Shown here in pieces: positions 29,352 to 33,707 of a DNA stretch of 64,000 bases. Under the pieces are notes generated by a model, which saw nothing but the letters and a program-made list of their open reading frames with translations, was not told the origin of the DNA and did no database searches. The first letter of the stretch is position 1; each line of letters begins with the position of its first letter. Made by a program: the position numbers and the translations under genes. Source of the stretch: Amoebophrya sp. A120 (taxonomy: Eukaryota; Protista; Dinoflagellata); assembly GCA_905178155.1 (NCBI GenBank), contig CAJINV010000022.1:1-64000 (forward strand). Reading direction: 5' to 3'.

Positions 29352-32300
29352 ATGTCGGACAAGCGTTTGGTCGCGAGAATCCAGGACTGCATCCGGGAAT
29401 CCGACCTGAAGACCGCAGATTTCGTAGGGGAAAAACTGAGGAAAAAATTCCCCGAATACGGCCGCAAGGACCGAAAAACCCTCAGAGGAATCATTCAGCA
29501 GCAGCTGAACAGCGTGAACAACGGAAGTTGTCTTGGCAATAATTCATCCGCGAATAATTATGCAGGTGGCAAGGCTGCAAATGGAGGCTCTGCAAATGCC
29601 CTCGTTGTAGGGCTGCAGCAGCGGGGGCCGCAGCAGCTTCCCCTCGTCGTCCCAGGAGCAGAAGGTAGTACTAGAAATGCAATACAGCTCGACAAAGACG
29701 TGCCCGCACGAAAGAAGCGAAAGACGGAAAGCAAGAACGGTAGTTCTTCATCCGGGCCGGCAGGAGCTAGTCTTCTTGCAACGGCAGACGCGTTGGGAGC
29801 TACTAGTACTTTGTCGAGCCACCTCGCAGAACCTCCAACCTCAAGAGAACAAGAGGATACCACAGCACCAGTGCAGCGGCCCGTTTCGTCTGGGATAGAA
29901 AGTTCCGGCGGGGATGAACTGCAACACCAAGCGCAAGAACAAAGTGGCACGACTAGCACAATAAACGGCAGTATAATCTTCGCCTCGTCCGGTCAAGCAC
30001 CAACCCCAGCGGTTGTCGCTCCCAGCACCGGCGCGAACAGATCTTTGCTAAATCTTTACAACAAAGTCGAACCGGCGGCAGCCACGAGTGCGAATGGTGG
30101 TACAATCGCAGCAAGCTCATCTACTTCAAAAAATTTTCAGAACCTTCAGTCAGCGAGAAGCAATTTGTCATCTAGCAAGAAGAATAGCAGTATGCGAAAA
30201 CAACAAGCGATGCAGAATAGCAGCAACAACCACAACGAGAACATCAACAACCAAAGCGCAGGAGGCGGGAATAACATTACGAACAATGCTGCCTCCACCA
30301 CAGCAAACGGTGCAGCAGCTGCATCCAACTCCGACAATAATTCCGCCTCAAAATTCAATCCCCAAGACTGCGAAATCCTCGAACCAAGTTGCACACTCGA
30401 TGAGATGGGAGGGATTGACGAATTACAGGAGGAAATCCGGGATTTGATCCTCTACCCGCTCCAGTACCCCGAACTCTTCTCCCATGTCGGCGCGGAACCA
30501 CCAACAGGTGTCCTCCTCCACGGCCCGCCAGGATCTGGGAAATCTATGTTGGCAAACGCTATCGCGGGGACCCTGAAAATCAAACATATTCCGGTCTTTT
30601 CCATCACAAGTACAGAAATCGTTTCGGGGGTGAGTGGGGAATCGGAGAACAAATTGCGGCAGTTGTTCCAAGAAGTGGTCAACCGCGCGGCCCCGGAGAA
30701 TTCCGGCGCGGCGTTGCTTTTTTTCGACGAAATCGACGCGATTACGCCGAAACGCGAGCAGTCGGAACGGCAGATTATCATTTGTAAAAACGTCCCCACC
30801 CCATAGCTGTCATGCAATTCTGCATGCTGAAGATGTTTCTCATGCGGAGCCCCATGAGAAGCATCTTCTAGCCGTGTTTCGGGATTTGTTATGCTCCAAT
30901 CAGCACGTTGCGCTAGATTTGTGATGCTAGTGAACGAGCCAAACAGGATTGCACTCTGAGACCAAACTTGTCATGCGCAGCAACCAACCCTTGTGGATTT
31001 GTCTAGCAGATTTCCCATCTTGACTCTGGGCTGGGGACGTTTTTACACAGGATACAGATGGATCGAAGAATAGTCGCGCAATTTTCCCACTGCTTGGACG
31101 AGTTGAAGGGGAAAAACGTGATCGTTTTAGGGGCGACCAACCGGTCGGACGCGATAGATTCCGCGTTGCGTCGGGCTGGCCGCTTCGACCGGGAGATTGC
31201 GATGGGGATTCCGAATTTAAAAGCCCGGGAGGCCATGCTGGAGAAAATTACGGTGAATATGAAATTGAAGAAGGACTTGTCCTTAGCCGAACTGGCGAAG
31301 CAAACGCCGGGCTACGTCGCCGCGGATCTGGTCTCGTTGACGCAAGAAGCGGCACTGGCGGCGGTGAAGGATTTCTTCGTCGCAAAGGAGAAGAGTAGTT
31401 CTGCTAGTTGTACTTCTGAAGATATTTGTGCGGACGGTGTAGCACTACCCACTGCTGGTCGCGCAGATGATGTTTCCGCTGTTACAAAAGACATAAAAGA
31501 TGTTGAAGCAGCAGCAGACGAGGACGACGAGGAAGATGCGGGACTGAGGGCCTTTATGGGACGAGACAACGACAACGACAATGCTGGTCAGAAGGGCAAG
31601 AAGACAAAACGCAAGAAAGACGACTTCGAAACGAAAAACGATTTCTGTATCGTGAACAAGAGTACTAGCGATGTTGAAACTGGCGACGATACGAAGACCG
31701 ATAGCGATGAGGAAGGAGAGAAGGAGTCACCCTCACCTGCTGCGCAGCAAGCTGAGAAGTCACCGGATGTTGATCCTGCAGTGGTCAACAGCAAAATCAC
31801 GACGATATCAACCTCCACCTGGATGAAGTCTTTCGGCCCCTTAACCCCTGGCGATTTCAACTCCATCTTATGCACTGCAAAAGCATCGTACTAGTACAGA
31901 TTGCTATACAAATTGGCTCAGCATTACAGATTGAATTTGTAATGCGGATTTACCTCGACACCTAGATTTGTAATGCATAGCTGCAATCACTACGAGTACG
32001 ATACTTTTGCAATGCATACATCTCCATTAACCACGAGAATTTCGCCATTGCGTTGAAAAAGGTCCTATCAAATGTAAAAATGTCTGGGTCTGGAAGAGTG
32101 CAAACTTGTGATGCGCATTTCAGAACACAGAAAAATCTGTCATGCATGGGTAGCAAAAGCTGCCCTCTTTCTGCCACCAAAGTGGGGGATTTGTCATGCG
32201 GATTCGGCATTGCGGAAGCTTCTCGAAACCTGTAATGCTAGAGCTTCCATGCCAGATCTTCTGTGTCATGCAAAAACAGCATGACTCTTCCAGACCCAGA

Positions 32301-33707
32301 CATTTTTGCATTTGATAGGTCCAGCCGTCCAGCCTCCGCGAGGGGTTTGCCACGACCCCGGATGTATATGAAAGTGCACAACTCCCCCTCCCCCTCATTT
32401 GGATGGCATCCGCAGCAACACAAGTCCTGGCACAGATGTAGCTTTTGCATGACAAATTTACGACTGATTGTAGTGCTGTTTCGGCTTCGGGAATCTGTCA
32501 TGCATAGTAGTGGCCAAGGGCAAAGGGTGGCTTTGGTGTTTTGCATGAGAAATGAGAACGAGGGGGAGTTGTGCACTGTCATAATGTGAATTGGGACGAC
32601 GTCGGCGGGATGGTACAATTGAGAGAGGAGTTAGAGCTCGCGATCATCCAGCCGATCAAAAAAGCGGAGCTCTTCGCGTCTTTGGGTTTAGCAACCCCAG
32701 CTGGTGTCCTCCTCTATGGCCCTCCCGGTTGCGGGAAAACTTTGGTTGCCAAAGCCGTCGCTTCCGCCGCGAACGCGAATTTCATTTCGGTGAAGGGCCC
32801 GGAGTTGCTGAATAAGTACGTGGGGGAGTCGGAGAGAGCCGTCCGGTCGGTTTTCCAGCGGGCTCGGACCAGTTCGCCCTGCATCATCTTCTTCGACGAT
32901 ATGCAATACAAATTTCCCGTACATGTACAAGATGCATCACAAATTTCACCAATGTGGAGCGTAAAACTTGTCATGTTAAACTAGGATCGAGGCCAGGTTT
33001 TGTCATGCGGAGACCGCATTCGAACTTGTACGGGAAATTTACTGTGGATACACGAGTTGGATTCCATGGTGCCGAAAAGAAGCTCCGAGGGCACGAGCTC
33101 GTCGGAAAGAGTCGTGAATCAAATGCTCACGGAAATGGACGGAATGAACAGTAGAAGGGACGTTTTTGTGATCGCGGCAACCAACCGACCGGACATCATC
33201 GACCCCGCGATGCTGCGGCCGGGCCGGTTGGACCGGTTACTGTATGTTCCGTTGCCGGACGAAAGTGGGAGGAGAGAAATTCTGAAATCGCTGACGCGGA
33301 GATCGCCTCTATCCGCGGACATCGACTTCGAGCAAATCGCGGGGAAAACCACCGGCTTCACGGGCGCGGATTTAGGGGCGTTGTGCCGGGAAGCGACGAT
33401 CCGAGCGATGAAGGTGTATTTGATGAAGTTGAATGAGATCGAAGCGGAGGAAGTAGCAAAGGAAAAAAACAGCACCGACAAGAACGGGAGTTCTTCTGCG
33501 CTTTTGTTGAAGAAGACCAGCAGTTTCGGCGACAGTGAAACAACAGCGAAAACCACCTTTTCCGGTGCGAAAAAGGTGATCGTGGAGCAAATACACTTCG
33601 TGCAGGCTTTGACGAAAGTGGTGCCGAGTGTCTCTGCGAAACAGCAACAGGAATACAAAAGCATCGCGGCAAAAATGACCAAGGAAGCCAGAATGTCGGG
33701 AGCGTGA
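29352..33707 (+). CDS. NVL: Nuclear VCP-like type II AAA+ ATPase (NVL/Rix7), about 1093 aa, 5 non-canonical introns
   Basis: Two AAA modules ([42 protein letters not shown]). Restored junctions [43 protein letters not shown]. Confidence 0.9.
30776..31054. mobile_element. TIR introner, family C (NVL intron 1)
   Basis: TSD CAGAT. Confidence 0.95.
31869..32018. mobile_element. TIR introner, family A, inverted orientation (NVL intron 2)
   Basis: TSD CATCT. Confidence 0.95.
32066..32317. mobile_element. TIR introner, family D (NVL intron 3)
   Basis: 34-bp near-perfect TIR; TSD GGTCC. Confidence 0.97.
32367..32583. mobile_element. TIR introner, family B (NVL intron 4)
   Basis: TSD atgta/atgtg. 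Confidence 0.95.
32900..33050. mobile_element. TIR introner, family H (AAATTTCCCGTACA), splitting Walker B (NVL intron 5)
   Basis: TSD gacga/cacga; removal restores FFDELD. Confidence 0.93.

What the first reader, a model, noticed from the sequence alone, without database searches (positions are those of the whole stretch)
32066..32317. Shared internal motif (TTGTSATGC / GCATSACAA) reiterated in otherwise unrelated families
Seen: families with different TIR cores carry several copies of TTGTCATGC, TTGTGATGC or TTGTAATGC in both orientations, tens of bp apart. This element has cttgtgatgc, tctgtcatgc, tttgtcatgc, cctgtaatgc and gcatgac. The motif looks rare in exons and intergenic DNA. Inference: a common binding site for one transposase or one RNA-binding splicing factor that marks the sequence for removal.
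Basis: partly seen in the sequence, partly recalled or inferred. Interest (0 to 1): 0.8.

Follow-up and report, generated by a model that had tools for sequence, protein, structure and literature searches.

The report
Helix-phased docking sites in transposon introns
Small transposon-derived introns of many different families in a likely Amoebophrya plankton parasite all carry the same 13-base motif, mostly in pairs 31-33 bases apart and in step with the turns of the DNA helix, which likely marks where one protein, probably the still-unidentified transposase, grips the DNA to move them.

Summary
The motif is real: 116 copies of TTGTVATGC in the window against 2.3 expected, and about 60-fold denser in elements than outside. 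32066-32317 is a 252-bp TAT...ATA element with a 5-bp target duplication inside an NVL/Rix7-like gene; RNA-type contigs fit its removal with one duplication copy. It matches the published Amoebrophrya A120 introners. Across 513 elements in 15 families (window plus 133 metagenome loci) the motif (RRAYYTGT[C/G/A]ATGC) is as conserved as the terminal repeats, forms same-direction pairs 31-33 bp apart over unrelated spacers (14 of 15 families), and shows a 10.5-bp period. Elements lie, and are spliced, in either orientation; there is no significant strand bias or pairing covariation, and one spliced element has a single site. Best reading: phased double-stranded-DNA binding sites for a shared mobilising protein, like Hermes or Spm subterminal repeats. 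An RNA splicing signal is unlikely; a DNA-bound host factor is not excluded. No transposase was found here. The motif is not in the papers I searched, but this scan noted it before on other pieces of the same genome.

The parts
32066..32317 (.). 252-bp non-autonomous TAT...ATA element (family 0 here) acting as a non-GT-AG intron
   Evidence: 31 of 32 terminal bases complementary; removal of element plus 5 nt fits the RNA-type contig offsets and restores the frame
32061..32065 (+). left copy of 5-bp target duplication GGTCC
32318..32322 (+). right copy of 5-bp target duplication GGTCC
32066..32099 (+). left terminal inverted repeat (TAT-N7-AAA then family core)
32284..32317 (-). right terminal inverted repeat
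32107..32114 (+). motif site 1, 42 bp from the left end; first site of a 31-bp doublet
32138..32145 (+). motif site 2, 31 bp after site 1
32192..32199 (+). motif site 3
32231..32238 (+). motif site 4; first site of a 33-bp doublet
32247..32254 (-). weak reverse site, 23 bp after site 4 (head-to-head arrangement)
   Evidence: matrix hit
32264..32271 (+). motif site 5, 33 bp after site 4
32279..32285 (-). partial reverse copy GCATGAC next to the right terminal repeat (below matrix threshold)
   Evidence: not among the hits
29274..33707 (+). host gene, NVL2/Rix7-like AAA ATPase, interrupted by five such elements
   Evidence: Pfam Nucleolin_bd and AAA; open frame of 1009 codons from 29604 after removing the five elements
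30776..31054 (.). neighbouring element, family 3, six sites all in one orientation, removed exactly
31869..32018 (.). neighbouring element, family 2
32367..32583 (.). neighbouring element, family 6
32900..33050 (.). neighbouring element, family 13
41280..41494 (.). diverged element with one matrix site and no strict motif, still removed exactly in four RNA-type runs of one sample

Best explanation
The motif RRAYYTGT[C/G/A]ATGC recurs about five times in each TAT...ATA intron element, in pairs 31-33 bp apart and at a 10.5-bp period, and is likely the double-stranded-DNA binding site of one protein, most likely a transposase shared by all families, that would assemble on these phased sites to pair the two ends for cut-and-paste movement. 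Shown: enrichment, conservation, spacing, 5-bp duplications, exact removal from RNA-type contigs in either orientation. Inferred: that a protein binds, that it binds DNA, that it is the transposase, and that copies keeping the lattice were the ones amplified, while the family-specific repeat cores and spacers drifted. Splicing would then rest mainly on the ends (TAT...ATA and the terminal hairpin), with the cut inside the duplication.
For: 493 of 513 elements hold at least one strict copy; 2740 matrix sites against 67 in shuffled elements (the matrix was trained on these elements). Motif columns 0.93 conserved (280 columns), other internal columns 0.74 (919), terminal repeats 0.89, in 9 families of 10 or more members; the fourth position varies freely (0.74) like a degenerate protein site. 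Same-direction pairs 30-33 bp apart: 24 in 14 of 15 family consensuses, best 4-bp window in 2000 randomisations at most 14; 18 in 10 of 10 with one family per clade, null at most 11; 416 of 513 single elements and 34 of 43 window elements have one. Spacers between families are 45% identical against 42% shuffled. Period scan 7-16 bp peaks at 10.5; with doublets held rigid in the null and left out of the count, 0 of 2000 randomisations reach it (all families), 3 of 2000 (one per clade, peak 10.25). First inward site lies 33-34, 41-45 or 55-57 bp from the end. Motif and terminal repeat decay in step in diverged copies (0.025 to 0.088 and 0.026 to 0.090). Both orientations to the host frame in each of the nine large families, e.g. 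56:38, 19:20, 25:19. Variable position does not covary between the two subterminal sites (63 of 166, 72.6 expected). Precedent: Hermes binds phased subterminal repeats and a 1-bp shift impairs cleavage (PMC10368747).
Against: No transposase-family hit in 121 of 122 long open frames scanned and no autonomous element in the window or loci; Farhat et al. found no transposase in A120 and argue against transposase-driven spread (PMC7789003 section 16). Sites fill the whole 110-320-bp element rather than only its ends. Doublet spacers are not significantly more constant in length than other segments (p=0.23). A 10.5-bp peak is close to the 11-bp turn of duplex RNA (51.3 vs 42.9 at 11.0). Tests for decay after insertion are weak: duplication-mismatch comparison inconclusive, only 9 copies in non-coding context. 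Two old elements whose predicted folds do not pair the extreme ends in register are still removed exactly, so something besides the hairpin may guide splicing. The loci were fetched with a family 0/1 pattern and come from one metagenome assembly; families are not fully independent.
Confidence: 0.68

Rival explanations
1. The phased sites bind a host (or domesticated transposase-derived) DNA-binding protein that sits on the elements in chromatin and marks them for removal from the nascent RNA, replacing the missing U1 step; orientation would not matter because the mark is on DNA.
For: Fits the helical phasing and the orientation independence equally well. U1 was not detected in A25 or A120 (PMC7789003 section 10). 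Old element 38453-38762 keeps 8 sites, has a weak predicted end hairpin (z -1.5) and is removed exactly. Only 21 of 312 oriented elements could use GT/GC-AG at any register in the duplication.
Against: 41280-41494 has one site and is removed exactly. The motif decays with the terminal repeat in old copies, while the terminal TAT appears to decay more slowly (about 0.045 vs 0.088 per base, a rough slip-tolerant count). An element nested in a GT-AG intron and 9 non-coding-context copies keep the motif about as well as exon-interrupting ones.
Confidence: 0.16
2. The motif is a single-stranded RNA signal or an RNA helix recognised by a splicing factor.
For: Slightly more TGT-form than GCAT-form copies on the sense strand (581 vs 485, not independent counts); family 1 leans to one orientation (36:20, p=0.044 uncorrected); motif bases are predicted paired more often than other internal bases in 15 of 16 spliced elements.
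Against: Spliced in both orientations (families 0, 2, 6); 30776-31054 has six sites of one form only; per-element sign test p=0.10; no covariation of the variable base; fixed direct-repeat spacing of three helical turns over unrelated spacers has no obvious meaning on single-stranded RNA.
Confidence: 0.06
3. The phased A/T-rich flanks and TGT...TGC steps are a DNA-shape code (bending or nucleosome-like wrapping) that lets very short elements loop their ends together, without base-specific recognition.
For: First sites of doublets carry an A-rich run (A55 A68 A76 T58 T83); elements are only 109-322 bp, near the stiffness length of DNA (recalled).
Against: The most conserved bases are the T, G and C of the core (0.89-0.97), not the A run (about 0.8), which points to base reading.
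Confidence: 0.05
4. The motif is a neutral relic of common ancestry and internal tandem duplication.
For: Some families share modules (10 unmasked cross-family matches); all share TAT ends and 5-bp duplications.
Against: Spacers are near random between families while length and motif are kept; motif columns are far more conserved than neighbours within families; the period survives with one family per clade.
Confidence: 0.05

Closest known systems
Introner elements among the non-canonical introns of Amoebophrya sp. A120 (Farhat et al. 2021, PMC7789003; Gozashti et al. 2025, PMC12130899)
   Same: Inverted repeats starting TAT, seven variable bases, then AAA; 3-5-nt direct repeats at the boundaries; about 240 nt; non-GT-AG; many families; classed as TIR DNA elements of unknown superfamily in most of the 22 of 58 A120 rows I saw.
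   Different: The parts I read describe no internal motif shared across families and no spacing rule; Farhat et al. report no transposase in A120 and no relation among families beyond the repeat.
Hermes (hAT) subterminal repeats bound by BED domains (PMC10368747)
   Same: Short motif repeated inside the ends in both orientations, palindromic pairs bound cooperatively, exact phasing to the terminal repeat matters.
   Different: Hermes site is 4 bp (AAGT/C), here 13 bp; hAT elements make 8-bp duplications (recalled), here 5 bp; here a regular 31-33-bp doublet is shared by families with different terminal-repeat cores; binding is untested.
En/Spm TnpA motif clusters (bioRxiv 10.64898/2026.08.24.746577)
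   Same: A roughly 10-bp motif with one variable base, clustered in elements, shared by related families and bound by an element-encoded protein.
   Different: Spm ends (CACTA, 3-bp duplication; recalled) do not match; Spm copies are not a genome-wide intron class.
IS3EU/GingerRoot and Ginger2 transposons (PMC10045372)
   Same: TA..TA termini (IS3EU); 4-5-bp duplication (Ginger2).
   Different: IS3EU duplications are usually 6 bp, here 5; Ginger2-type TGT..ACA ends (recalled) appear at one end in only 6 of 513 elements.

Membership tests
Amoebophrya A120 introner elements | Terminal inverted repeat beginning TAT, 7 variable nt, then at least AAA | tested here: met
   TAT at 90, 87, 88 of 90 ends; A at positions 11-13 in 71, 82, 75 of 90; families 6, 7, 8, 11 lack the A run
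Amoebophrya A120 introner elements | 3-5-nt direct repeat at the exon/intron boundary | tested here: met
   Exact 5-bp repeat in 429 of 513 elements, one mismatch in 84; the search itself required a 5-bp repeat
Amoebophrya A120 introner elements | Removed from mRNA without GT-AG | tested here: met
   16 single elements skipped as element plus 5 nt in RNA-type contigs of one sample (13 seen as joints or adjacent pieces, 3 including the focal one by offset arithmetic)
Amoebophrya A120 introner elements | Organism is Amoebophrya A120 | tested here: inconclusive
   Inferred from the end signature against PMC7789003; no genome held; run names are coded
MITE (non-autonomous TIR DNA transposon) | Short, terminal inverted repeats, target duplication, many copies, no transposase gene | tested here: met
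MITE (non-autonomous TIR DNA transposon) | Mobilised in trans by a cognate autonomous element | tested here: inconclusive
   None found in the window or 634 kb of loci; unreviewed earlier notes name candidates elsewhere in the genome
hAT superfamily | 8-bp target duplication (recalled) | tested here: not met
   5 bp
hAT superfamily | Phased subterminal repeats bound by the transposase | tested here: inconclusive
   Phased repeats shown; binding not testable here
IS3EU/GingerRoot | TA..TA termini | tested here: met
   486 of 513 TAT..ATA, 19 with TAC/GTA at one end; definition
IS3EU/GingerRoot | Usually 6-bp target duplication | tested here: not met
   No element with an exact 6-bp repeat among the listed classes
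IS3EU/GingerRoot | IS3/IS481-like DDE transposase | not testable with these tools
   Whole contigs and genome not held
RNA splicing enhancer or factor site | One strand-specific form present on the transcript | tested here: not met

The most novel reading that the evidence does not exclude
One DNA-binding protein, a transposase or its domesticated copy, forms a helically phased lattice on tens of thousands of intron elements and does double duty: it moves them and, bound to chromatin, tells a U1-less spliceosome where to cut, so intron identity would be written as a DNA code instead of an RNA splice signal.
Probability: 0.13. Interest if true: 0.92.

Novelty: new variant of a known kind. Interest (0 to 1): 0.6.

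Why it matters
Farhat et al. detected 29,850 repeated non-canonical introns in A120 and left both their mobiliser and their splicing route open. A single motif and spacing rule shared by all families argues that one protein serves them all, ties apparently unrelated families into one system, and gives a defined bait (a 31-33-bp doublet, in phase and out of phase) for finding that protein and for testing any candidate transposase. It also separates what transposition needs (motif lattice) from what splicing may need (ends).

Tried and rejected
No genome is held for the window and the metagenome contigs are not searchable as whole records, so no genome-wide transposase search was made. Pfam scan of 121 of 122 open frames of 250 aa or more found no transposase family; weak, since split or divergent genes escape. 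The terminal-repeat pattern has no match in viral contigs. Raw RNA runs X11 and X12 barely laid (11 and 1 reads), so they say nothing on this locus; no run on record as RNA held the stretch. The idea that the terminal TAT-N7-AAA is itself a motif copy holds for 7.8% of ends only (families 2 and 13): rejected as a general rule. The 972-bp L042 element looked like a remnant of an autonomous copy but is a family-0 element with a nested poly(A)-tailed insert. The 2.4-kb L067 candidate spans a host-like frame without Pfam hit: set aside. No orthologous insertion pairs usable for a rate test were found (2 flank-sharing pairs only). Old-versus-young test by duplication mismatch: inconclusive. Spacer length constancy: not significant. 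Paper searches for the motif: introner + internal motif + transposase, 0 papers; TGTCATGC + transposon, 70 papers, the 10 listed unrelated; Amoebophrya + introner, 12 of 14 listed; motif strings absent from the one Farhat supplement and 13 of 14 Gozashti supplements; figures in those supplements (logos, alignments) cannot be seen, and Roy et al. 2023 (Curr Biol) was seen only as a reference.
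Full report
What is there. The stated interval is one element: 32066-32317, 252 bp, with 31 of 32 terminal bases complementary and GGTCC repeated on both sides. It interrupts an NVL2/Rix7-like AAA gene (Pfam Nucleolin_bd and AAA) together with four elements of other families. A contig of run X3 (RNA by the tool's guess; it skips introns and ends in ten A) maps in pieces whose offsets (1976, 2063, 2374, 2375, end 3258) equal those of a model that removes each of the five elements plus 5 nt; that model is open for 1009 codons, against 730 if the focal element is kept and 690 if only the element without the repeat is removed. 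The focal joint itself was not displayed; it follows from the 86 nt (42 + 44) between two displayed pieces. In the next gene, 15 of 25 joints were shown, all in four runs of one sample: ten single elements as element plus 5 nt, one pair of adjacent elements, and four GT-AG introns; one more element is skipped between adjacent pieces. The end signature TAT-N7-AAA, short direct repeats and size match the introner elements of Amoebophrya A120 (PMC7789003; I read the abstract, passages, sections 10, 11, 12, 16 and part 2 of 5 of the supplement). The organism is inferred from that match.

The motif is real. TTGTVATGC occurs 116 times in the window against 2.26 in shuffles. A scan of metagenome contigs with the family terminal repeat gave 133 loci, 634 kb non-redundant, all from one assembly and biased to families 0 and 1. 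With the window this gave 513 elements, 493 with at least one strict TGTVATGC. Density is 11.15 per kb in elements and remnants and 0.18 per kb outside. Three GT-AG introns hold no strict copy. The consensus is RRAYYTGT[C/G/A]ATGC with variants such as TTCTCATGC and YTGTVTTGC; a matrix trained on the elements finds 2740 sites, 5.4 per element, against 67 in shuffles.

It crosses family lines. Fifteen families of three or more members were aligned. They share only TAT[C/G] ends, the 5-bp duplication and the motif: with motifs masked only families 0 and 1 still match, though ten unmasked matches show some shared modules. In nine families of ten or more members, motif columns are 0.93 conserved, terminal repeats 0.89, other internal columns 0.74, and the fourth motif base is free. 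Picking sites from the consensus favours conserved columns somewhat, so the gap is an upper estimate.

It is spaced like a DNA-binding site. Same-direction pairs 30-33 bp apart occur 24 times in 14 of 15 consensuses (null best window at most 14 in 2000 trials) and in 416 of 513 single elements; their spacers are 45% identical between families against 42% shuffled, although 13 of 311 comparisons reach 65%. Head-to-head pairs cluster at 21-23, 42-44, 51-56 and 74-77 bp, tail-to-tail at 9-10, 27-28 and 41-43, and the first inward site lies 33-34, 41-45 or 55-57 bp from the end. The pooled period peaks at 10.5 bp. With doublets kept rigid in the null and excluded from the count, 0 of 2000 randomisations reach the observed value, and 3 of 2000 when families 1, 7, 8, 11 and 13 are left out as relatives. 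The tail-to-tail class alone peaks near 15-16 bp, and spacer lengths are not significantly steadier than other segments. The focal element shows the pattern: sites at 42, 73, 127, 166, 199 and a weak reverse site at 189.

It does not behave like an RNA signal. Of 513 elements, 370 could be oriented to a host frame; each of the nine large families occurs both ways; 74 have only the TGT form on the sense strand, 59 only the GCAT form, 223 both, 14 neither. The per-element bias is 160 to 131 with 79 ties, p=0.10. Families 0, 2 and 6 are removed from the RNA-type contigs in both orientations. The variable base does not covary between the left and right subterminal sites (63 of 166, 72.6 expected). 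Element 41280-41494 has one site and is removed exactly. Against this: raw counts lean 581 to 485, and motif bases are predicted paired more often than neighbours, as any inverted copies would be.

Decay. In 602 near-full-length copies the motif and the conserved terminal-repeat columns diverge together; nine copies in non-coding context keep the motif about as well as 217 in coding context (0.049 vs 0.043), too few to decide. The comparison of 74 elements with an imperfect duplication against 394 with a perfect one is inconclusive. The terminal TAT may decay more slowly than the motif (rough). The focal element folds into a strong end-to-end hairpin (z -11.7), but two old, exactly removed elements do not pair their extreme ends in register in prediction, so the splice signal is not settled.

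Mechanism. Most likely (0.68) the lattice is read on double-stranded DNA by one mobilising protein; three-turn doublets put sites on one face of the helix, and fixed offsets from the ends would position the catalytic units. This is how Hermes uses its subterminal repeats, where phasing is critical (PMC10368747, passages), and resembles Spm TnpA motif clusters (bioRxiv 10.64898/2026.08.24.746577, passages). The protein was not found: no transposase family in 121 of 122 long frames. The elements are not filed under hAT (5-bp, not 8-bp duplication, recalled) or IS3EU (TA..TA ends fit, 6-bp duplication does not; PMC10045372 and PMC12730594, passages). Gozashti et al. class most of the A120 families I saw as TIR DNA of unknown type and describe one with integrase-like frames (PMC12130899, passages and 22 of 58 table rows). 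A DNA-bound host factor that aids splicing (0.16) explains the same spacing and is the main rival.

Novelty. The elements are published; the shared motif and its phasing are not in the texts I could search (figures unseen). My spacing analysis came before my first look at the scan's notes, which record the same motif and phasing on other pieces of this genome and name 10-12-kb TAT...ATA elements with a divergent hAT-like enzyme as candidate masters. Those notes are unreviewed, I could not test the candidates, and they are not counted as support. Verdict: new variant of a known kind; interest 0.6, because it makes an open question directly testable.

Noticed in passing
window 32367, 32900, 38453, 39830, 41280 (element starts): Imperfect duplications show which copy of each base stays in the RNA; if one rule holds, the cut falls after the 3rd or 4th base of the 5-bp repeat, whatever its sequence.
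   Followed up: partly
L042 10001-10972: Family-0 element in an RPB1-like gene carries a roughly 690-bp insert ending in AATAAA and poly(A), flanked by a roughly 19-bp duplication that contains a motif site; similar poly(A) junctions at L042 15342 and L028 1087 suggest retro-insertions landing beside the motif.
   Followed up: partly
window 41575-41973 and 41984-42262: Two elements whose duplications abut; both are absent from the joined RNA form, which needs a 5-nt exon or joint removal; the diverged first element is retained in some RNA-type contigs.
   Followed up: partly
window 37268-37420: Family-2 element nested inside a GT-AG intron that is removed as 361 nt; it keeps its motifs.
   Followed up: partly
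window 62540-63824: A 36-bp direct repeat that includes a family-3-type left end brackets about 1.25 kb with its own inverted repeats and motif-like sites: probably an insertion into an element end.
   Followed up: no
window 42324-42526 and 44229-44439: A near copy of a family-6 element with its downstream flank is repeated about 1.9 kb away, truncated at the left end.
   Followed up: no
window 34609-42000: Downstream gene, AP-1 gamma-adaptin-like by my reading of its N-terminus (recalled; no Pfam hit for the first exon), has at least 16 introns, most of them these elements.
   Followed up: partly
L010 2635-6090: Two frames matching C-5 cytosine DNA methylase.
   Followed up: no
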